A stretch of DNA of 10,885 bases, from positions 1 through 10,885 of IMG/VR virus record IMGVR_UViG_2541047699_000009; one strand, written 5' to 3'. The notes beneath the pieces are model-generated. The model had not been told where the DNA came from and ran no database searches. It saw only the letters and a list, made by a program, of their open reading frames with translations. Positions 1 through 9,519 of this stretch are shown piece by piece. The position numbers were made by a program, and so were the translations under genes. How positions within the stretch are numbered: position 1 is the first letter of the stretch; each line of letters opens with the position of its first letter. Origin of the DNA: a virus (Duplodnaviria > Heunggongvirae > Uroviricota > Caudoviricetes).

Positions 1-705
<705 letters not shown>

Positions 706-937
706 TATGGCACCTGTGTTGTTCTGAGGTGAGCATATCACCTCTGTTCAGGTGGCCAAATTCAGTAAACCACTTCAGAACTCGAGAGCATAAAAGTGGA
801 TGCCCGACGCGCGGCAAAATGGTAAAAAACAGCATCAGTAGTAAGAAAAATTGAGCGAGAGAAAGGAATTTTAATGCAGGGATTTATGCATGACAAAATC
901 AAAAATGCTTTGTAAGTGATTGATTTTGTTGAATGAT

Positions 938-999
938 TGGCGGAGAGAGGGGGATTTGAACCCCCGGTAGAGTTGCCCCTACTCCGGTTTTCGAGACCG
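938..999 (-). tRNA. Partial tRNA-Ser(CGA) gene, 3' 62 nt only (serU-like); probable prophage attR core
   Basis: Minus-strand reading CGGTCTCGAAAACCGGAGTAGGGGCAACTCTACCGGGGGTTCAAATCCCCCTCTCTCCGCCA contains an anticodon loop CUCGAAA (anticodon CGA), a long class-II variable arm, a T arm GGGGG-TTCAAAT-CCCCC, the 3' acceptor strand and CCA. The D arm and 5' acceptor strand are absent; sequence diverges at 1000. Confidence 0.8.
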
Positions 1000-1299
1000 A
1001 TGATACAGAGTCGAAAAATCAAAGAGTTAAAAACTTTTCTTGGAATAAATGTCTTAAAATCGTACACGAAAAATCAATAAATTACATAACATTAAAGAAG
1101 AATATTCCAAGCCTTCTTGAGGCCACCACCTGTTTTCAGGTGTCATTCAGACGTGATTTACCCCAGATTGGGTAAGCACGCTTTTTTTCTCAGCTTATTC
1201 CGTTTTGCCTGTGTGTTGAATAATTCCACTGCAGTTATATAAAATCGGTAACGGCTGGAAATCATTCAATACTAGCACTATCGAAAGTTAACCAGCCAA

Positions 1300-1340
1300 C
1301 CGCAGTATCCTGTCATGACAAGTTACTGCGGCTTTTTACT
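1300..1340 (+). terminator. Long imperfect palindrome followed by T-run; candidate plus-strand intrinsic terminator or protein-binding site in the att arm
   Basis: CCGCAGTATCCTGTCA / TGACAAGTTACTGCGG forms a roughly 16-bp stem with two mismatches, followed on the plus strand by CTTTTTACTTTTT. On the minus strand it is not followed by a U-run. Confidence 0.45.
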
Positions 1341-1348
1341 TTTTATAT

Positions 1349-1636
1349 TTAACGGATCAACATCCAGATCAGCAGACACGCCACCACCGGCACAGCAAAA
1401 TCCATCAGGCTTGCCACATCCCACGCGCGTGGATCAAAACCGCCCCACCACGGCATGTTAATCCGCTTGCCATGCCCGAACATTTCAATCCAGCGATATT
1501 CTGCCTGGGTGTGTTCACGCGCAATGAAGAACGTACAACCGGCTATCGCCCCGTAAGCCCAGTTTCCGGTAAAAAGACCAGCCAGTACCTGTACCGCTAC
1601 GGCACAAATTGCATGAAGTATCGGCGTGATATCCAT
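1349..1636 (-). CDS. Hypothetical small integral membrane protein (95 aa), terminal moron position of the prophage
   Basis: ATG at 1634-1636, 9 nt after the upstream ORF stop, with AAGGGGAG just upstream. The translation has three hydrophobic segments (ILHAICAVAVQVLAGLF, AYGAIAGCTFFI, FAVPVVACLLIWMLI). I do not recognise the family. Confidence 0.55.
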   Translation of the reverse strand: MDITPILHAICAVAVQVLAGLFTGNWAYGAIAGCTFFIAREHTQAEYRWIEMFGHGKRINMPWWGGFDPRAWDVASLMDFAVPVVACLLIWMLIR

Positions 1637-1645
1637 CTGCTCCCC

Positions 1646-1924
1646 TTAAAACCACTCCCTGAGCGGGCGCTCTGGTGTAACCACCCACTCACGGAACACG
1701 GATTCATCAAAGCCATCGTCAAGAAGACGAATATTAACAAAGTACCCTTCGTCTCGCGTGTATTCAGGCTCCCCGTCAGCAGAAACACCTGACTCACTGA
1801 ACGTAAAACCAATCTCATCAACCAGAACGGCATTCTGCAGCTCTTCGTCCTCTTCCCAGTTAAGTTTCCTGAGAAATGCCCTGAAATCTGCTTTATCACT
1901 GAAACGCAACGTGAAATCTCTCAC
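1646..1924 (-). CDS. Hypothetical small acidic protein (92 aa), translationally coupled to stf; possible tail-fibre assembly or chaperone-like protein
   Basis: GTG start at 1922-1924 overlaps the stf TGA stop in a GTGA arrangement, with GGGGAGG about 7 nt upstream. There is no internal Met. It is much shorter than lambda Tfa and I see no similarity to it. Confidence 0.55.
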   Translation of the reverse strand: MRDFTLRFSDKADFRAFLRKLNWEEDEELQNAVLVDEIGFTFSESGVSADGEPEYTRDEGYFVNIRLLDDGFDESVFREWVVTPERPLREWF

Positions 1925-3984
1925 TCCACAACCTCCCCAAGCTGCGCATCTGTTAGCTCTTTATGCCAGAGACGAAAATTCCTCACATGCCCAAATAAAT
2001 GGCGTAATCCTGCTGTAGTTTGTCCACCAATGCGAATGGTTGCTGTACTCCGGATATATTCCCATTTGGTTTTAGTTTCGCTGCTTAACTTACCGTTACT
2101 GACTAAACATGTGGACCGTTCGGACTTTACCCGCATACCAATAAGCATTTTTTTCAGCCCGGCATTTTCATTTATTCGTCGGTTTGAACCACCTATATCA
2201 CAATACGGAAAACCGTCGTACCCACCTGATGAACCAAACCCCATTACGATCCCCGCATCTGCCTGATGCCGGTATGTGTCAAAAACACGCGGTGCTGCAT
2301 TTGGCGTTTTATACCAGTTCTTATGTACCTCACAAAGAACCGTAAAAGGAAGATTATAAAGATTATTCTTAATCGGAACTGTAACCATATCGCTTGCCCG
2401 CGTTACCGGTGCCGTCCCCGTAACAATAAAAGATGATGCGCCTGTACCAGCCTCAATCTGTGGAGTGGTTACATCGAGATAATCCCCTGATGCAACCATC
2501 TGCCCTGTATCCGGAGAATACTGGACAAAACCACCAACCGTATTTTCTGTTGTATCTGCTTTTAATGTAGCCTCAAAAAATATCCAGCCAGTTGCATCAT
2601 CCTTAACAGACCTTGCTGTAACACGGCTTGTCTGACCTGTCTTGCTAATTATGCGGGTGGTAAGGTTCAGGTTTGCTGCTCCTATTGATGTCCTTACCTC
2701 CCCATCATAATGTTCAAATAAAATACGAACGGCGATATTATCAACTTCACTTTTTACCCGACAGGATATAGTTACATGCTTTTCGTCCCCTGAAGTATCA
2801 ACCCCTCCGGTACTCGAATACAGTCCGATAATGGTATGCGCTTTACTTGTACCAACAATCGAATCCTGTACGACAAACCGGCCATAATTAAACCCGAAAC
2901 TATCTGTGCCTGTTTCTGTAACGTCCAGTGAAGTTGACTTATTCCACTTCGAAGGGTCTGTACTGTTCGGGAAGAAGTTCGTTCTTTGCCCCTCAATAAG
3001 CAGGCCATCACACTCAAATCGTGGCTCATTAATTTCCGCCGTTTTCAGTTCGCCAGATTTGTTGATATATGTTGCCGTTGATGCGCGACTGAAATTAACC
3101 TGTTTATCACTGGCAACCTGAACCACATTATCACCAATCTTCACTTTTTTATAACCCGGAGAATAGCCCGTAATCATATCCAGCGAATCATTAAAGGGTA
3201 TCCACACATCCGGCAGCGGCTGTAAAACATATCTGTACGGCTCTGCTGTCTGGTTTGCGTATTCTCTGGCAGCATCTTCACTTGCTTTTGCTGCCGTCTG
3301 GCTTGCTGCCGATGCTTTCGCCGAGTTCGCCGCCGCTGTTTCGCTCACCTTTGCGTTGGCTTCACTGTCTTTGGCATTCGTCTCACTGGTTTTCGCTGCC
3401 GTCTGGCTGGATTTTGCGTTTTTTTCGCTGGCCTTTGTGGCTGTCTCGCTATTTTTCGCGTTGGTTTCTGATTTTTTGGCTGCTGTCGCGGAGTTTGCCG
3501 ATGCAGTCTGCGAGGCCGCTGCCGCCTGTGCGCTGTTAGCTGCATTCGTTTCTGAGGTTTTCGCCGCGTTCTTCGATGAGGCCGCTGCCGTTTCGGATTT
3601 CTTTGCCGCCGCTGCACTCTGTGATGACGCTCCGGCATGACGTGCCACTTCATTCACCATCAGCTCAAAACGGCGCAGTGCCTCCGGACGGGCATCATCC
3701 TCCGTCATGGCACCGAGAAAATCATTCAGCGTACCTGGTCTGGAACCTTCATAGACGGTAATGGTCCCGGCATGTGAAGGTGGAAAACCTTCAACCAGCA
3801 GGGTGACGCTGTACTGGCCATACTCAACATCCATGCTGTAACGCCCGGCTTCATCCGGATTTTCAGAGGCCACCGTGTTCACCACCACCGTGCTGCTGGT
3901 CCGTCTGGCCTTCAGCACAATGGTGCAGTTCTGTACTGGTTTTCCTGTGCCATCTTTAAGCACGCCAGAAATTTTTACTGTCAT
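1921..3984 (-). CDS. stf: Side tail fibre protein (Stf-like), 687 aa, mosaic with divergent C-terminal half
   Basis: N-terminus MTVKISGVLKDGTGKPVQNCTIVLKARR...RYSMDVEYGQYSV...FPPSHAGTITVYE matches the lambda Stf N-terminal domain from memory, followed by an Ala/Ser/Lys/Thr-rich repeat. The C-terminal half is of lower GC and ends ...GHVRNFRLWHKELTDAQLGEVVE. Confidence 0.85.
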   Translation of the reverse strand: MTVKISGVLKDGTGKPVQNCTIVLKARRTSSTVVVNTVASENPDEAGRYSMDVEYGQYSVTLLVEGFPPSHAGTITVYEGSRPGTLNDFLGAMTEDDARPEALRRFELMVNEVARHAGASSQSAAAAKKSETAAASSKNAAKTSETNAANSAQAAAASQTASANSATAAKKSETNAKNSETATKASEKNAKSSQTAAKTSETNAKDSEANAKVSETAAANSAKASAASQTAAKASEDAAREYANQTAEPYRYVLQPLPDVWIPFNDSLDMITGYSPGYKKVKIGDNVVQVASDKQVNFSRASTATYINKSGELKTAEINEPRFECDGLLIEGQRTNFFPNSTDPSKWNKSTSLDVTETGTDSFGFNYGRFVVQDSIVGTSKAHTIIGLYSSTGGVDTSGDEKHVTISCRVKSEVDNIAVRILFEHYDGEVRTSIGAANLNLTTRIISKTGQTSRVTARSVKDDATGWIFFEATLKADTTENTVGGFVQYSPDTGQMVASGDYLDVTTPQIEAGTGASSFIVTGTAPVTRASDMVTVPIKNNLYNLPFTVLCEVHKNWYKTPNAAPRVFDTYRHQADAGIVMGFGSSGGYDGFPYCDIGGSNRRINENAGLKKMLIGMRVKSERSTCLVSNGKLSSETKTKWEYIRSTATIRIGGQTTAGLRHLFGHVRNFRLWHKELTDAQLGEVVE
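3265..3635. repeat. Imperfect tandem 21-nt (7-codon) repeats encoding the K-x-S-E-T/N-x-A low-complexity segment of Stf
   Basis: Protein segment KKSETAAASSKNAAKTSETNAANSA...KKSETNAKNSETATKASEKNAKSSQTAAKTSETNAKDSEANAKVSETAAANSAKAS. The DNA shows recurring units such as TTTCGCTGCCGTCTGGCT, and the repeat generates spurious ORFs on other frames (3345..3653, 3356..3640). Confidence 0.7.
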
Positions 3985-3995
3985 ACTTTTCCACC

Positions 3996-4029
3996 AATAA
4001 AAAAAGCCCGCAGCAGTGACGCCACGGGC
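3996..4029 (-). terminator. Candidate rho-independent terminator downstream of lom, about 20 nt upstream of the stf start
   Basis: Minus-strand RNA GCCCGUGGCGUCACUGCUGCGGGC can form a roughly 10-bp stem including G-U wobbles, followed by UUUUUUUAUU. The plus-strand equivalent would have A-C mismatches, so the structure is strand-specific. Confidence 0.5.
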
Positions 4030-4135
4030 TTCAGGACAGTGTAACTTTACGTTTCCTCAAACGCAGTTCACCCCATAAGGCGGATGAACCTGCGTATCAT
4101 AACAATATTTACAGAAGATAAATCGGCGTCTGTTG

Positions 4136-4735
4136 TCAGAAACGGTATCCGATACCAACAATAAATGCATCCGTTCGCCAGTCGCCACTGCCGGAGCCTT
4201 CATAAGCAATATCAATGGCCACGGATTCGGTCGGGTTAAACTGCACGCCAGCTCCCCACGCCAGAGAGGTATTGCTGTGGCGACCGTCATCACTTCCGGT
4301 CAGCACGTCGTGCGTTTTCCCCTTGTTGTCAGTTACGCGGAGATAATCCCCGGAGAAAGTCGACACACGGCTGTAAGCCACACCCGCGATCGCATACGCG
4401 CTGAACCATTCATTCACGCGCACAGACGGCCCCGCCATCACGCTGAACCAGCGGTTACGCACGGAATCTTCATGCCAGCGGGTATCGCTGTAATGCGTTT
4501 TTTGCTCATCTTTGGCATTGGCATAACTGAATGACGTCACCAGCCCCAGCGTGTCCGTAAATTCATAACGGTATTTCACGTTAATGCCCTTCAGGTCATC
4601 GCTGCCTGGCATATCAGTATGGGTCTGAAGATACCCGGCGCTTAGTGTGGACTGATGCTCTGCTGCGCTCGCTGGCGTACCAGCGGCAACCAGCCAGACT
4701 ACTGCGGACAGAATAACAGCACATAATTTACGCAT
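4136..4735 (-). CDS. lom: Lom-like outer-membrane beta-barrel protein (Ail/OmpX/PagC family), 199 aa
   Basis: Signal peptide MRKLCAVILSAVVWLVAAGTPASA, alternating beta-strand pattern and C-terminal GIGYRF aromatic terminus. Position between J and stf is the same as lambda lom. AGAGG lies upstream of the ATG. Confidence 0.9.
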   Translation of the reverse strand: MRKLCAVILSAVVWLVAAGTPASAAEHQSTLSAGYLQTHTDMPGSDDLKGINVKYRYEFTDTLGLVTSFSYANAKDEQKTHYSDTRWHEDSVRNRWFSVMAGPSVRVNEWFSAYAIAGVAYSRVSTFSGDYLRVTDNKGKTHDVLTGSDDGRHSNTSLAWGAGVQFNPTESVAIDIAYEGSGSGDWRTDAFIVGIGYRF

Positions 4736-4755: not shown

Positions 4756-4783
4756 CAATAAAAAAGGCGCCATTTCTGGCGCC
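4756..4783 (-). terminator. Rho-independent terminator between J and lom
   Basis: Minus-strand GGCGCCAGAAAUGGCGCC is a perfect 6-bp GC stem with a 6-nt loop, followed by UUUUUUAUU. It is not a terminator on the plus strand. Confidence 0.7.
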
Positions 4784-4802
4784 CGTATTGGGGTTATAAA
4801 AT

Positions 4803-7800
4803 TCAGCTAATCGTGATGCCTGCAGTGGCTTTCTTCATCACAACAACCAGCAAATCGCTGATACTTGCTGTGGGATACCAGCCATTTACCCACCATGCTG
4901 ATACAGAAAACTCCAGCGTCATGTCGCCGCGACCAGCAGGCATATCAATAACACCACTGTAAACCAGCGTATTATCCATCGCGGTACGGTTATAAATTTC
5001 AGCACCGTTTTTCTTCACTATCAGGCGGCATGACGAATAAGTATCGCTGTTCTCCCGCTCATGTCTGGCACCGCTGAAAGCCACCGCCGGAATAACAATC
5101 TGCCGGTTAAACGGCTGATCGTCATAAACCCTGACGGTAATGGTTCCTGATGGCCAACGCTTCGGTGCACGGGAGTCACGAGGGAAAGCCTTACCCACTG
5201 TTTTAACGAGATCGCCTTCAATCTGGTTTGCAGACAGTTTCCCTCTGATGACACAGTTCTCGTTAATGGTGACATTATTGAGCGTGCCGGTATTCGCCGT
5301 GATGGCTCCACTGATATCCGCATTGCGGGCTGTCAGCCTGCCATCCGGCGTCAGGGAAAACGTCGGAGGATTGCCGGATGACGTGATGCTCACCGCAAAC
5401 AGTCGCTTCAGGAACACGTCGTTCATGAACAGCTGATTCCCCTGCGCCACAAACAGCGGCGTGGTGTTGCCGTTCTCCGGGGTAATCATCGCAATGCGAT
5501 CGGCCTGCAGCAGAATGTTACTCAGGGTCTGACCATCAACATCCTCAATCCCCGCACCAATCCCGGCCACATAGGGAATACCGTTTTTTGTTTTCTGCAC
5601 CTTCAGCATATACATGGCATTCAGCTCATTGCGCGTGTCTGACTGAACCCGCTGGATTTGCTGTATGGTCACGGCCTGGTCACCCAGCTTTTTATCCGTG
5701 GTCGAGGTAATTTCACTCCCTTTTTTATCCACGTACTGGCGGACCTGTGCTATCTGTCGGGCGTTTTCTGACTGCCCCTGGCTGACAGTCTGTGAGATTT
5801 CACTGCTCACCCGGTCCACTTTCTGGCTCACCTGCGCGATGGCCAGTGTCTGGTCCTCATTCTTTTTCGCAACCAGCTGCGTGAGGCTGTTTTCCGCCTT
5901 CCCGATTTTCCGGGTCACTTCTGCGATATCCGTGTCCATCCGCTGACGGATGTCTTCTTCCAGTTGCGTGACCTCCGTACGCAGCGCTGAAGCATCAATG
6001 CGCTCTTTCAGTGCCTGGCCCAGAAGCGTCTCATCTATCAGCCCCCGGAAAATTTCCAGATACCCTTCACCATCATTGCTGGGCTGCCCGCTGGCTTCCA
6101 CAAAAGCAGATTTTCCCACCAGGTTGACGCTTCGCACGTAAAACCAGAAATCCGTCCCCGGCTTAATCCGGCTCCCCTGGACAGTCCACTGACTGCCGGT
6201 CCCCAGATAACGGGCAGATTTTTCCACCTGTGCTGTGTTCGTGATGCGTTTTTCTGAGAACCAGAATTCAAACTGCACCGTCGGGTCATACACCGCAAGA
6301 CGCGGGACCGCCGTTATCTGAAAATACCCCGGCGTCAGCTCAATGGTGGCGGGTTTTGCAGGTGCGTTAATCCTGAACGTGGTGGTGGCCGGTTCGCCCT
6401 GCTGGCCATAACTGTTAATCGCCCTGACCGTCAGGGTGTATTCCCCCAGTGGCAGGCCGCTGAAACGGTGCTCCGTGTCTGCGGTGCTGGCGGTGCTCAC
6501 CAGACGGCTGTCTTCTCCGCTTCCGCTGGTCAGACGCAGACTGAAGCGCACACCCTTCACCACCCGCGGCGTGTCCCATTTCGCCTGTGCCAGATACTGA
6601 CCGTCAGCTGCACTCACCTCCACCGTCAGGTGCTGCACTGCCGGTGGGATAACGCTGTTCAGGGTGCCTGACTGCGGCTCAAAGCGGGCCCCGTTATCCA
6701 CGATGGCTTCTTTTTCAGGTACGTGCTGCACCGCCGTGATGGCAAAGGTGCCGTCCGTGTTTTCCCGGATGGAGACACAGCGGAACAGGCGACGACGCAG
6801 TGACGGCAGGGAGAGTCCCCACACACCGTATGTCTCCACACCATCCGGCAGGGTGCTGACCTGTATCCGGTCAGGCGCGGGGTGTGCGGTGATGGCCACG
6901 CTCGCCGGCTTACCGCTGCCGTTAATCAGATTAACAGTGGCCGTGCCGGTCTCCGGCAGTGTCACCTCCCGGTCCAGCGTCAGGGTACGGCTGGCGGCAT
7001 CGATGGACAGGACACGTCCGCCGGTCATGGTCCCGGCATAGTCGTTATCACAGATTTCAATGATGTCACCGGGTGTGTGACGCAGCCCCTGTGACCCGAG
7101 CGTGAAATCCACCGTCTGCGTTTCCAGCAGTTCGGTCTTTATCACCCACAGCCCGGCACGGTGGGCCTGACCGCGGCTGGTACAGCCGAACGCGTCCATC
7201 TTCAGCAGGTTGCGTCCGTAGCGCAGTATGGCTTCCGGGTCTTCCACCAGTTCCGTGGAGGTCTGCCAGCCGTTCTGCGGGTCGGTGTAATTCACCTCCA
7301 CCGCCGTGTGCCGGTCCTTCAGGGCACTGAAGCTGTAGCGGAAACCCACGCCGTTATCATCCACCACCACATCGCTGCTGGTGTACGGCCACACCACATC
7401 CGACGGGCGGTCCTGAACGAACGTCAGCGTCTGACCGTTCCATACCGGCATACAGCGCATCGCAGAGCAGAAATCACTGAGAACGTCCCACGCCTTACGC
7501 TGTTGTGCCAGGTACGCATTAAAGGTCATCCGCGGCTCGGTCCCCCCGAAACCATCCGGGACCGTCTGGTCGCAGTACTGCCCGATGGCATACAGCGCCC
7601 ACTTGTCCACATCCGCCGCCCCCAGACGTTTTCCCATGCCGTAGCGCGGGTGAGTCAGCATGTCCCACAGACACCAGGCCGGGTTGTTGCTGTATGCCGG
7701 TTTCAGGCTGCCGTCCCAGATACCACTGTACGTGCGTTTTTCCGGGTCATAGTTTGACGGCACCTGGATGATGCGACCGCGGATATGGTAGTTCACCGTC

Positions 7801-8495
7801 ATCTGCTGGCCGCCGAACTGCTCCGCATCCACCTGCAGCCCCACAATGGCCGTGTTCGGGTAGCACTGTTTCACATCGATGATTTCGGTGTATGACGACC
7901 ACAGCGTCTTATTCTGCAGCTGGTCCGTGGTGCTGTCCGCCGTCTCCCTGACCATCCGGATGTTAAAGGGCCGGGGAGGCAGATTATCCAGAATCACCGA
8001 GGCCAGGAACTGCGAGGTGGTCTTGCCGTTAATGGTGACATCCTTTTCCGTCACCCAGCGGCCATTACGCTGTAACTGAATCAGAATCCGGACAGAGGAA
8101 GGATTACGGTCGCCCTTTGACGTGGTCTGCACCAGTGACTGCACCCCGAAGGTAACCCGCAGGCGGTCAATGTTCGCGGACGTAATGGTGCGCGTCACCG
8201 GTTTTGCCTTCGTCACTTCCACGCCCAGTCCGGTTTCAGCTCCGGAGGACTCAAAGCCTTCCGGTGGTGTCTGCTCCTGCTCCCCGGCACGCCAGACCGC
8301 AGTCACACCGTGTATCACGGGATTACCGTCCGTGTCCGTCAGCGGGGTTTTGTTCACCAGAATACTCTGCAGTCCCTTCACCGGACCTTCTATCGGTCCC
8401 TCACCAATCGCATCAATCACACTCATCATCTGCGTGGATTTGAGATTATCCTTCGCCTCACGAGGCGTGTGTGCCTTACCGCCACCTTTTCCCAT
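4803..8495 (-). CDS. J: Tail tip / host-specificity protein J (central tail fibre), 1230 aa
   Basis: N-terminus [22 protein letters not shown] and long internal stretches ([90 protein letters not shown]) match lambda gpJ from memory. It is about 100 aa longer than lambda J and the C-terminal roughly 130 aa are divergent. Confidence 0.95.
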
Positions 8496-8597
8496 ACAGC
8501 CTTCCCCTGAATAAATTAACCGCCACTTGCCATTCCGTACAGAAGTCGGATATCCTTCGCCCGAAAAGCATGAAACACATTTCTGCCATGCTAAAGA

Positions 8598-8633
8598 GAA
8601 ACCCCGGTATCAGCAGATACCGGGGTTTTCTTT
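8598..8633. terminator. Bidirectional hairpin terminator in the I-J intergenic insertion
   Basis: ACCCCGGTATC-AGCA-GATACCGGGGT is an 11-bp perfect stem with a 4-nt loop. It is followed by TTTTCTTT on the plus strand and UUCUCUUU on the minus strand. Confidence 0.6.
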
Positions 8634-8700
8634 CATGCCCACCGATAATCCTGTTGGTTAAAACCGGTAATGGCATAAAAATTCTGAATATCTTCACATT

Positions 8701-8728
8701 TTCACAAACTGACTGTGGCGCGTATAAT
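8701..8728 (+). promoter_or_regulatory. Sigma70-like promoter candidate (TTCACA, 16-nt spacer, TATAAT) on the plus strand
   Basis: Consensus -10 TATAAT at 8723-8728 and TTCACA at 8701-8706 with a 16-nt spacer. No ORF follows; a terminator lies about 70-100 nt downstream. Confidence 0.45.
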
Positions 8729-8734
8729 TTCTCT

Positions 8735-8831
8735 GCGTTAATTTTTTTGTCGTGATATAAGAATAATTCCTTACACTTAATCTTCGTAACTCTCCCGCAG
8801 TTCCTGTCCGCGATCACTGCGGGATTTTTTT
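8735..8831 (+). ncRNA. Candidate small non-coding RNA, about 95 nt, between the promoter candidate and the plus-strand terminator
   Basis: Defined only by a promoter-like element upstream and an intrinsic terminator downstream, with no coding potential in between (GTG followed by a stop after two codons). I do not recognise it as a known sRNA. Confidence 0.3.
8795..8831 (+). terminator. Plus-strand rho-independent terminator abutting the I stop codon
   Basis: CCCGCAGT ... ACTGCGGG is an 8-bp stem with a roughly 13-nt loop, followed by ATTTTTTTATTCTTTTT. On the minus strand the hairpin is followed by AGAGUUACG, so it is plus-strand specific. Confidence 0.6.
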
Positions 8832-8838
8832 ATTCTTT

Positions 8839-9519
8839 TTACCCCTGCCGCCCGATAACCACGACCTTTCCGCCCCCGCCTTCATCACGGGTGCTGATGT
8901 CCTGGGATATACGGCGGGAGCCAACCAGCATTTCCCCGTAAGGCACCGGCATCGGGTTCCCCTGGGCAATCATGTTATCCAGTGAGGAAAAGTACGTGTT
9001 CTGTCTGCCGTTATCCGTTGCGCGGTAATCCGGTGTTTTTGCCTTCGGGGCCAGCATCTGGGCCACACCGCCCAGTATCATGCTGGCCCCCAGTGAAAAC
9101 AGCATCGTGGTGGCAGAAAAACCGCCGGCACTCAGGGCTGTACCCCATAACGCCATCGAGGCACCGGCCGTGAAGAAAGAGCCCACGATGGCTGCCGCCC
9201 CCAGCACAATCTGCAGTCCACCCTTTCCGGCCCCGGCCAGTCGCGGCACAATGTGGATGACCGTTCCCTCACCCAGCTGTTCGTGAAGACGGGCGTACAC
9301 CGCCTCCGGTGCCGTGTCATCACCGGCAATACGTATCTGGTACCAGCCTTCGTTCATCTGACGGCGAAAGCCCGGCATCTGCATCGACAGGGCGCGAATG
9401 GCTTCCGCTGCCGTGTTCACATACAGGCTGAGGCGGCGGCCAAATCGTTGTAAATCCCCGTAAAGGCGGATGCGTGCCAGTGGCGGTGACGCCAGACTGA
9501 ATGCGTTCGTCGTTGCCAT
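8839..9519 (-). CDS. I: Tail tip assembly protein I, 226 aa
   Basis: MATTNAFSLASPPLARIRLYGDLQRFGRR..., AVIHIVPR-type motif, Gly/Ala-rich hydrophobic segment and C-terminal TDNGRQNTYFSSLDNMIAQGNPMPVPYGEM match lambda gpI from memory. ATG confirmed at 9517-9519. Confidence 0.9.
   Translation of the reverse strand: MATTNAFSLASPPLARIRLYGDLQRFGRRLSLYVNTAAEAIRALSMQMPGFRRQMNEGWYQIRIAGDDTAPEAVYARLHEQLGEGTVIHIVPRLAGAGKGGLQIVLGAAAIVGSFFTAGASMALWGTALSAGGFSATTMLFSLGASMILGGVAQMLAPKAKTPDYRATDNGRQNTYFSSLDNMIAQGNPMPVPYGEMLVGSRRISQDISTRDEGGGGKVVVIGRQG

What the first reader, a model, noticed from the sequence alone, without database searches (positions are those of the whole stretch)
8496..8838. 343-bp non-coding insertion between tail genes I and J with promoter and terminators: candidate prophage small RNA
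In lambda, as I recall it, I and J are nearly contiguous. Here the gap holds an 11-bp-stem bidirectional terminator (8601-8626), a near-consensus sigma70 promoter on the plus strand (TTCACA, 16-nt spacer, TATAAT, 8701-8728), and a plus-strand terminator about 100 nt downstream (8795-8831). Together these delimit a roughly 95-nt transcript with no coding potential, oriented opposite to the late operon. The bidirectional hairpin also sits on the late mRNA just upstream of J and could attenuate or time J expression. This is the least expected structure in the window.
Basis: partly seen in the sequence, partly recalled or inferred. Interest (0 to 1): 0.62.

Follow-up and report, generated by a model that had tools for sequence, protein, structure and literature searches.

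The report
Divergent PasB-family prophage small RNA gene
The gap between tail genes I and J holds a self-contained small-RNA gene that is an unstudied, common version of PasB, a prophage regulatory RNA already shown to exist in pathogenic E. coli, so the kind of thing is known.

Summary
Window 8496-8838 is exactly the non-coding gap between J (4803-8495, -) and I (8839-, -). It contains an 11-13 bp hairpin, an 11/12 sigma-70 promoter, and a plus-strand terminator with U7.

The promoter-to-terminator unit (8735-8831, +) is not new in kind. It lies at the same place and in the same orientation as PasB. PasB is an 83-nt Hfq-dependent sRNA validated in EPEC E2348/69. The Hfq-bound sRNAs EcOnc22/23/24 of EHEC Sakai also lie in I-J gaps.

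Compared with the E2348/69 locus, the promoter block is 92% identical and the terminator 100%. The transcribed body is only about 59% identical. A covariance model built only from published-type members hits 8735-8831 at 53.5 bits. The BLAST criteria of the 2026 PasB survey would miss this allele. The allele occurs in 800 of 5426 complete E. coli genomes, including CFT073, and is unannotated where inspected.

Most likely it is a trans-acting Hfq-dependent sRNA expressed from the lysogen. No expression data exist for this allele.

The hairpin at 8601-8626 is probably not part of the sRNA cassette. Lambda and other lambdoid I-J gaps carry an analogous late-strand hairpin just upstream of J.

Verdict: real feature, new member of a known kind, modest interest.

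The parts
8496..8838 (.). Non-coding I-J intergenic gap (343 nt; 60 nt in lambda)
   Evidence: ORF list. Pfam confirms J and I. Lambda coordinates. The identical gap is unannotated in CFT073, and none of the 30 best-matching RefSeq records lists a feature under it.
8672..8838 (+). pasB-type cassette: the block homologous to the E2348/69, Sakai and Stx-phage I-J gaps (promoter, sRNA, terminator)
   Evidence: Alignments A1, A3 and A4. Identity to E2348/69 by segment: promoter block 92%, body 59%, terminator 100%.
8701..8728 (+). Sigma-70 promoter: TTCACA, 16-nt spacer, TATAAT (11/12)
   Evidence: The same promoter is found at the E2348/69 PasB locus. An exact-pattern scan found it in at least 119 IMG/VR viral contigs.
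8735..8831 (+). Predicted sRNA, the 'W-type' PasB allele. 97 nt if transcription starts 7 nt after the -10. About 82 nt if the 5' end matches the 83-nt PasB annotation.
   Evidence: Model R1, built without any W-type sequence, matches 8735-8831 end to end at 53.5 bits, E about 8e-13. Single-sequence fold: z = -2.1.
8768..8785 (+). Conserved core UCCUU...AUCUUC, partly to mostly unpaired in predicted folds, just 5' of the terminator. Proposed seed with an anti-Shine-Dalgarno-like UCCUU.
   Evidence: Invariant columns across 7 alleles in A4 and in A2. Mean unpaired probability 0.47-0.85 across alleles. The 2026 preprint places the PasB seed in the same position.
8794..8831 (+). Intrinsic terminator: 7-bp stem CCCGCAG/CTGCGGG plus U7. 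This is an Hfq-binding type 3' end. It is unidirectional, with no U tail on the - strand.
   Evidence: RNAalifold consensus; the stem is invariant in 12 alleles. Folds. The reverse complement of the PasB Northern probe matches 8807-8826 exactly.
8599..8628 (.). Strong hairpin of 11-13 bp with T-rich tails on both strands. Interpreted as the I-J intercistronic late-strand hairpin or terminator.
   Evidence: Analogous hairpins in lambda, E2348/69 and Sakai. One compensatory C-G to U-A change among short-arm variants.
8496..8671 (.). 'Long' J-proximal arm: a variable module that also holds the J leader and ribosome-binding site on the - strand
   Evidence: Two arm types, 197 nt and 95 nt measured from the J start to just before TTCACA at 8693-8698, combine freely with the sRNA body types. 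The long arm is at least 99% identical in 1441 records, occurs 1-4 times per genome, and is not a dispersed repeat.

Best explanation
Window 8735-8831 (+) is a gene for a small regulatory RNA of the PasB/EcOnc22 family. It is a 'moron'-type cassette inserted between the lambdoid tail genes I and J and transcribed antisense to them.

Proposed mechanism:
- Its own near-consensus sigma-70 promoter drives transcription in the lysogen, independently of the late operon.
- The 7-bp GC stem plus U7 terminates the transcript and supplies the Hfq-binding 3' end.
- The single-stranded conserved stretch UCCUU...AUCUUC (8768-8785) pairs with target mRNAs in trans, probably at ribosome-binding sites.

The window carries a divergent allele. 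The promoter and terminator are shared with PasB, but about 40% of the body differs, so its target set probably only partly overlaps that of PasB.

What is shown: the homology, the anatomy and the distribution. What is inferred from homologues: expression, Hfq dependence and trans action. What is inferred from conservation only: the seed and the targets.
For: Position and orientation match PasB of E2348/69. PasB lies between I (ends 1466255) and J (starts 1466496), on the strand opposite to them.

The two gaps align. The promoter block is 92% identical, the terminator 25/25, and the body 59%.

A covariance model built only from PasB-type, short-type and Sakai EcOnc22-type sequences finds 8735-8831 end to end at 53.5 bits. 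The next-best window hit has E = 0.34. The model gives exactly one hit per intact I-J gap in the other loci and none in lambda.

Homologues are experimentally real. PasB was found by RIL-seq with 37 interactions, confirmed by Northern blot, and shows Hfq-dependent stability. EcOnc22 gave a Northern band of about 85 nt and was destabilised in a hfq deletion.

The promoter is 11/12 and unique in the window, with P about 0.01 for a random gap of this size.

The gap has no conserved ORF and no protein-family hit.

The allele body occurs in 800 of 5426 complete E. coli genomes, at 99% identity or better in 613 records.

Seven allele classes keep UCC.U and AUCUUC invariant just 5' of the terminator.
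Against: There are no expression, Hfq-binding or target data for this allele.

Only the terminator stem is supported as structure, and it is invariant, so there is no covariation. The 5' halves of the alleles fold differently.

The single-sequence fold is only mildly better than shuffles (z = -2.1).

High identity among copies may reflect recent prophage spread rather than selection.

The annotated PasB 5' end lies 14 nt downstream of the start predicted from the promoter. The mature 5' end here is therefore uncertain.
Confidence: 0.8

Rival explanations
1. The RNA works mainly in cis. It is perfectly complementary to the I-J intercistronic part of the late tail-operon mRNA. After induction it would pair with that mRNA, or its convergent transcription would interfere with the operon, to set the I:J ratio or delay J. 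This could also act on the late mRNA of a superinfecting related phage.
For: The gene is antisense to the late operon, and its 3' end lies 7 nt from the I stop codon. The cassette is held at this one position in every intact I-J gap locus inspected.
Against: The complementary stretch (8735-8831) is more than 225 nt from the J ribosome-binding site, so it cannot occlude it directly. PasB forms Hfq-mediated chimeras with many unlinked core and accessory mRNAs in an uninduced lysogen. Lambda itself manages I and J without the cassette. This rival does not exclude trans action.
Confidence: 0.1
2. The window allele is a decaying or neutral copy. It would be a PasB-type cassette whose body has drifted and no longer makes a functional regulator.
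For: The body is only 53-59% identical to PasB. The predicted 5' structure is not conserved. A related copy in phage Stx2_EH1846 has lost its promoter to a sodC insertion, so copies do decay.
Against: The promoter is intact at 11/12 and the terminator is perfect. The divergence is sharply confined to the body, between conserved flanks, which suggests allele replacement rather than uniform drift. The allele is as common as PasB-type itself, 800 versus 887 genomes. It also occurs in E. albertii. The UCCUU...AUCUUC core is retained.
Confidence: 0.08
3. The gap is a remnant of a protein-coding gene or a recognised repeat element, and the promoter and terminator are coincidental.
For: A 113-aa ORF on the - strand and a 94-aa ORF on the + strand span the gap mechanically. 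One phage record annotates a hypothetical protein here.
Against: Neither ORF has a Pfam or PHROG match. The ORFs are absent from the homologous E2348/69 gap, whose indels are not multiples of three. The long arm occurs 1-4 times per genome at 99% identity or better, so it is not dispersed like REP or ERIC elements. No Rfam family reaches threshold.
Confidence: 0.02
4. The long J-proximal arm (8496-8671) encodes a second plus-strand small RNA of about 70 nt that ends at the 8601-8626 hairpin and its U-rich tail.
For: The hairpin has a T-rich tail on the + strand as well. A weak promoter-like site lies at 8527-8556, 9/12. The arm is more than 99% conserved in about 1440 genomes. The fold has z = -5.7.
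Against: Sites matching 9/12 occur at the chance rate across the window, 9 found against 8.7 expected. The short-arm and lambda hairpins have a U tail only on the late strand, which points to a late-strand role. There is no sequence variation in the arm with which to test structure.
Confidence: 0.1

Closest known systems
PasB sRNA of EPEC E2348/69 (Pearl Mizrahi et al. 2021, PMC8550237; surveyed by Zhu, Shabalina and Storz 2026, bioRxiv 10.64898/2026.05.13.724894)
   Same: It lies in the same intergenic site (I-J gap of a lambdoid prophage) in the same antisense orientation. It has the same TTCACA-16-TATAAT promoter, with the promoter block 92% identical. The 25-nt terminator is identical. The UCCUU...AUCUUC core just 5' of the terminator is shared, and the size is similar.
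   Different: The body is only about 59% identical. BLAST with the 83-nt PasB query finds only the 25-nt terminator, and nothing at all at word size 28, so this allele falls outside the published survey's criteria. The J-proximal arm is 197 nt here and 95 nt there, and the two are unrelated in sequence. No experiments exist for this allele.
EcOnc22/23/24, Hfq-bound sRNAs of EHEC O157:H7 Sakai prophages Sp15, Sp14 and Sp11 (Tree et al. 2014, PMC4104026, table S2)
   Same: All lie in I-J gaps, antisense to the tail genes. They share the terminator stem CCCGCAG/CTGCGGG plus a U run and the AUCUUC core. The Northern band is about 85 nt and is Hfq-dependent.
   Different: The promoter and body are more diverged, about 70% identity over the cassette. 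The arm is the short type. Placing the CRAC peak inside the sRNA relies on a +137 to +146 coordinate offset between genome versions, which I inferred from the position of AgvB. Without any offset the peak still lies in the same gap on the same strand.
AgvB / AsxR prophage 'anti-sRNAs' (Rfam RF02702, RF02703)
   Same: They are prophage-borne, Hfq-binding sRNAs kept at a fixed moron site. Family members share a conserved 3' part and differ in the target-pairing part.
   Different: They lie downstream of PR', not in the tail operon. They are 51-60 nt long. There is no sequence relationship and no Rfam hit in the window. My first guess of AgvB was rejected.
Lambdoid 'morons': autonomous promoter-gene-terminator units between late genes, such as lom, or sodC in the I-J gap of phage Stx2_EH1846
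   Same: It is extra DNA between two genes that are 60 bp apart in lambda, with its own promoter and terminator. The same gap hosts sodC, in the same antisense orientation, in another phage.
   Different: The cargo is a non-coding RNA, and the unit is oriented against the late operon.
Lambda I-J intercistronic hairpin (NC_001416 about 15464-15483, AAACCGCC-UGCG-GGCGGUUU followed by UGUCAUUU)
   Same: It is a GC-rich hairpin with a U-rich tail on the late strand just upstream of J, as at window 8626->8601.
   Different: The sequence is unrelated. The window hairpin is longer, lies 105 nt from the J start rather than about 20 nt, and also has a T-rich tail on the opposite strand.

Membership tests
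PasB/EcOnc22 family of I-J gap sRNAs | Located in the gap between tail genes I and J of a lambdoid prophage, on the strand opposite to them, with the 3' end next to the I stop codon | tested here: met
   Window: J 4803-8495 (-), I 8839- (-), sRNA 8735-8831 (+). PasB: I ends 1466255, PasB 1466343->1466261, J starts 1466496.
PasB/EcOnc22 family of I-J gap sRNAs | Sequence homology of the transcribed region to known members | tested here: met
   Model R1 was built without any window-type sequence. It scores 53.5 bits, E about 8e-13, end to end over 1-98. The terminator is 25/25 identical and the body 59%.
PasB/EcOnc22 family of I-J gap sRNAs | Shared promoter | tested here: met
   TTCACA-16-TATAAT at the homologous position in both loci. 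58 of 63 promoter-block positions are identical.
PasB as operationally defined in the 2026 survey (blastn with the 83-nt E2348/69 query, word size 28, query coverage above 75%) | Detectable by those BLAST criteria | tested here: not met
   There is no hit at word size 28. Default blastn finds only 25 nt, 30% coverage. This is therefore a family relative, not a 'PasB variant' in the survey's sense.
Hfq-dependent trans-acting sRNA | Intrinsic terminator hairpin followed by at least 6 U at the 3' end | tested here: met
   A 7-bp GC-rich stem plus U7 at 8794-8831.
Hfq-dependent trans-acting sRNA | Own promoter and no coding potential | tested here: met
   An 11/12 promoter. No AUG in the 97 nt. 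Gap ORFs are not conserved and have no family match.
Hfq-dependent trans-acting sRNA | Physical association with Hfq, Hfq-dependent stability, and pairing with target mRNAs | not testable with these tools
   Shown only for homologues: PasB and EcOnc22.
Hfq-dependent trans-acting sRNA | Conserved, accessible seed | tested here: inconclusive
   UCC.U and AUCUUC are invariant across alleles. Their predicted unpaired probability is 0.47-0.85. No target is known to test the seed against.
Moron (autonomous unit inserted between late genes) | Extra DNA between genes that are adjacent in related phages, carrying its own promoter and terminator | tested here: met
   The lambda gap is 60 bp and the window gap 343 bp. 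The cassette is absent from lambda. Promoter and terminator as above.
AgvB/AsxR anti-sRNAs | Match to the Rfam models RF02702 or RF02703, and location at the PR' moron site | tested here: not met
   No Rfam hit at the gathering threshold, and neither family appears among the hits at E <= 10. The same Rfam search does find AgvB in Sakai Sp10.

The most novel reading that the evidence does not exclude
The I-J gap of lambdoid prophages carries an exchangeable sRNA cassette. Promoter and terminator are fixed, while the target-pairing body comes in at least five to seven alleles that recombine independently of the flanking arms.

The window allele is a distinct regulator with its own host regulon. 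It was missed by the only survey of the family. It is present in about 15% of complete E. coli genomes, including the reference uropathogen CFT073. That would roughly double the known reach of the family and add an uncharacterised prophage sRNA to ExPEC regulatory networks.
Probability: 0.4. Interest if true: 0.45.

Novelty: new member of a known kind. Interest (0 to 1): 0.3.

Why it matters
Prophage-encoded sRNAs link mobile elements to host regulation in pathogenic E. coli. PasB is one of the few validated examples, and its function is still unknown.

This work shows that the same cassette exists in a second, equally common allele with a different pairing region. That allele is unannotated in the records inspected (CFT073 and the 30 best-matching RefSeq records) and invisible to the BLAST criteria of the published survey. 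It gives a concrete, cheap experiment in well-studied strains such as CFT073, S88 and ATCC 25922. It also suggests that family prevalence has been underestimated.

It does not reveal a new kind of element.

Tried and rejected
1. My first guess was AgvB/AsxR. This was rejected. They lie at the PR' moron site, and Rfam finds nothing in the window.

2. Rfam at a permissive threshold gave only sub-threshold, terminator-driven matches such as STnc310 (19 bits against a gathering score of 40).

3. Coding remnant. The 113-aa and 94-aa gap ORFs have no Pfam or PHROG hit and are not conserved.

4. Repeat element. The long arm is single-locus, 1-4 copies per genome, all at 99% identity or better. A distant search of phages returned only 13 identical copies.

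5. A conserved 5' hairpin in the sRNA. RNAalifold keeps only the terminator, and there is no covariation.

6. A divergent promoter on the late strand that would explain the late-strand terminator. None reaches 9/12.

7. The variant sequences from the preprint's supplementary figures are held as images, not text. I reproduced the preprint's search criteria instead.

8. I did not extract the list of PasB RIL-seq targets. Conservation of the seed-target pairing in this allele is therefore untested.

9. Literature searches for this allele in uropathogenic strains, and for sRNAs between I and J, found nothing further.

10. Locus L132 was examined as a possible cassette-free ancestor. It is just a deletion into I in a decayed prophage.

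Full report
**Observation**

The window is the tail end of a lambdoid prophage. The 1230-aa ORF at 4803-8495 (-) carries the full set of GpJ domains. The ORF at 8839-9519 (-) carries Lambda_tail_I. The stretch between them, 8496-8838, is 343 nt. In lambda the same two genes are 60 bp apart (I ends 15444, J starts 15505).

- A hairpin at 8601-8626 of 11 bp, extendable to 13 bp. Predicted dG is about -24 kcal/mol on the + strand and -25 on the - strand, with T-rich tails on both.
- A promoter TTCACA-16-TATAAT at 8701-8728.
- A plus-strand terminator with stem 8794-8800/8817-8823 followed by A and U7 to 8831.

The promoter is the only 11/12 match on either strand of the 10.9-kb window. It would arise in about 1% of random gaps of this size.

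The two long mechanical ORFs that cross the gap have no Pfam or PHROG match and are absent from the homologous gap of another strain. No Rfam family reaches threshold.

**What it is**

The gap is 100% identical in many complete E. coli genomes, including CFT073, S88 and ATCC 25922. It matches 1662 of 5426 genomes in some form. No feature is annotated under it in CFT073 or in any of the 30 best-matching RefSeq records.

The literature identifies the locus. Pearl Mizrahi et al. 2021 (PMC8550237) found PasB in EPEC E2348/69 by Hfq RIL-seq and confirmed it by Northern blot. Their table S6 places PasB at NC_011601 1466343->1466261 (minus strand, 83 nt, prophage PP6). In that genome the tail assembly gene I ends at 1466255 and J starts at 1466496, both on the plus strand. 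PasB therefore occupies the same gap, in the same antisense orientation, with its 3' end next to the I stop codon. The reverse complement of their Northern probe matches window 8807-8826 exactly.

Aligning the two gaps gives these identities:

| Segment | Window coordinates | Identity to E2348/69 |
|---|---|---|
| Promoter block | 8672-8734 | 92% |
| Transcribed body | 8735-8806 | 59% |
| Terminator | 8807-8831 | 25/25 |
| J-proximal arm | 8496-8671 | unrelated |

**Membership**

I built a covariance model only from PasB-type sequences, a shorter relative, and the EHEC Sakai type. No window-type sequence was included. The model matches window 8735-8831 end to end at 53.5 bits (E about 8e-13; E-values from this model are rough). 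The next-best hit in the window has E = 0.34. The model gives exactly one hit in every intact I-J gap I fetched and none in lambda.

The window allele fails the operational definition used in the only survey of the family (Zhu, Shabalina and Storz 2026). That survey used blastn with the 83-nt query, word size 28 and coverage above 75%. The 83-nt query finds nothing at word size 28. Default blastn finds only the 25-nt terminator. That survey describes PasB variants as differing by 'a few nucleotides'. Its PasB-2, with a change at position 27, corresponds to the commonest PasB-type variant in my sample. The window allele is therefore a family member that the survey could not see.

**Earlier sightings**

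Tree et al. 2014 (PMC4104026, table S2) list EcOnc22, 23 and 24 in Sakai prophages Sp15, Sp14 and Sp11. They report a Northern band of about 85 nt, 'destabilised' without Hfq, targets unknown. Each listed peak falls in the I-J gap of its prophage, on the strand opposite to the tail genes.

The paper's coordinates are 137-146 nt lower than those of NC_002695.2 at AgvB, which I located with Rfam. Applying that offset puts the EcOnc22 peak at 2902851-2902920. This is inside the model hit at 2902836-2902926. The offset step is my inference. Without it the peak still lies in the same gap and on the same strand.

**Allele structure and distribution**

An exact-pattern scan for the promoter returned at least 119 IMG/VR contigs and one E. 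albertii genome. The region downstream of the promoter falls into several classes: the window type, the PasB type, a shorter type and an intermediate type. GenBank phages add further classes: the Sakai type, an Stx1-phage type, and an Stx2c/Stx1a-phage type that is 94.7% identical to the window cassette.

All classes share the terminator stem and U run. All keep UCC.U and AUCUUC invariant just upstream of the terminator. The preprint proposes the PasB seed in this same position.

Body types, the two J-proximal arm types (197 nt and 95 nt) and the two I-side junctions occur in many combinations. The gap is therefore a recombining mosaic.

In complete E. coli genomes the window-type body is found in 800 of 5426 genomes and the PasB-type body in 887.

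**Structure**

RNAalifold supports only the terminator stem, which never varies, so there is no covariation evidence. The 5' halves of the alleles fold differently, and the conserved core is partly to mostly unpaired, with mean unpaired probability 0.47-0.85. The single-sequence fold of the window RNA is modestly better than shuffles (z = -2.1).

**How it most likely works**

Shown here:
- An intact, strong promoter and an Hfq-type terminator bracket a 97-nt non-coding stretch.
- The stretch is homologous to two experimentally verified Hfq-dependent sRNAs.

Inferred from those homologues:
- The RNA is made in the uninduced lysogen.
- It is bound and stabilised by Hfq.
- It pairs in trans with host and accessory mRNAs. 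PasB had 37 RIL-seq interactions and was more abundant under the non-activating growth condition.

Inferred from conservation only:
- Pairing uses 8768-8785. Its UCCUU is complementary to a Shine-Dalgarno sequence, which suggests occlusion of ribosome-binding sites.
- Because about 40% of the body differs from PasB, the regulon probably overlaps only in part.

A cis role on the late mRNA cannot be excluded. It is less likely as the main function, because the complementary stretch lies more than 225 nt from the J ribosome-binding site.

**The hairpin at 8601-8626**

This hairpin lies outside the block that is homologous among cassettes, which starts near 8672. Other I-J gaps have a different hairpin at the equivalent place. 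E2348/69 and Sakai have CAGGCACC...GGTGCCTG, followed on the late strand by UUGUUUUUG or UUGUUUUCUGG. Lambda's own 60-bp gap has AAACCGCC-UGCG-GGCGGUUU followed by UGUCAUUU.

Among the short-arm variants, one stem pair changes from C-G to U-A, with a C.A intermediate in another variant.

The common denominator is a terminator-like hairpin on the late strand just upstream of J. I therefore read it as an ancestral feature of the I-J junction rather than part of the sRNA insertion. It could act as a barrier to unmodified polymerase in the lysogen or as an mRNA 3'-end stabiliser. Its function is not testable here. The plus-strand U tail in the window version could also insulate the sRNA promoter from antisense-J transcription.

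A second sRNA in the long arm is possible but unsupported. The only candidate promoter is a 9/12 match, which is at the chance rate.

**Verdict**

However, the element belongs to a described family. The new points are these:
- The allele is divergent.
- It is as common as PasB itself.
- It is present in reference extraintestinal strains.
- It is unannotated in the records inspected.
- It was missed by the published survey.
- EcOnc22-24, PasB and this allele are one family at one site.

I rate it a new member of a known kind, with interest 0.3.

Noticed in passing
L130 (phage Stx2_EH1846, LC567840.1 38616-39516), locus 1-502: A sodC (Cu/Zn superoxide dismutase) gene sits in the I-J gap in the same antisense orientation. 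It replaces the sRNA promoter. A window-like sRNA body and terminator remain just downstream of sodC, so the gap is a general moron site. In this phage the sRNA may be promoterless or derived from the sodC 3' UTR.
   Followed up: partly
L133 (lambda NC_001416, 15445-15504); L002 5431-5454; L124 2244-2265; window 8599-8628: Lambda and three unrelated lambdoid I-J gaps each carry a GC-rich hairpin with a U-rich tail on the late strand just upstream of J. The short-arm version shows one compensatory C-G to U-A change. I found no description of this conserved junction feature in the papers read.
   Followed up: partly
window 1-777: The left end of the window matches an IS3-like ISEc52 transposase inserted beyond the tail-fibre genes. 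Only one complete genome (strain M1/5, NZ_CP053296.1) covers window 1-1950 at 99%.
   Followed up: no
window 4765-4784 (-) and 4003-4032 (-): Strong late-strand intrinsic terminators flank the Ail/Lom gene (4136-4735, -). One lies directly after J and one after lom. This is the classic lom moron arrangement.
   Followed up: no
L045 (IMG/VR contig), J-proximal arm: One locus has a clean 47-nt deletion that removes exactly the long-arm hairpin, between two TTTCT direct repeats. This natural hairpin-less variant could serve as a control.
   Followed up: no
NC_002695.2 versus the coordinates in Tree et al. 2014 table S2: The published EcOnc coordinates are about 137-146 nt lower than those of the current RefSeq Sakai record at 1.94 Mb, judged from AgvB. 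Anyone mapping EcOnc features onto NC_002695.2 needs this offset.
   Followed up: partly
L122 (Escherichia albertii NBRC 107761, NZ_BBMY01000220.1) 33-129 (-): The window-type allele, with the same model score of 53.5 bits, is also present in E. albertii. It is therefore not confined to E. coli.
   Followed up: no
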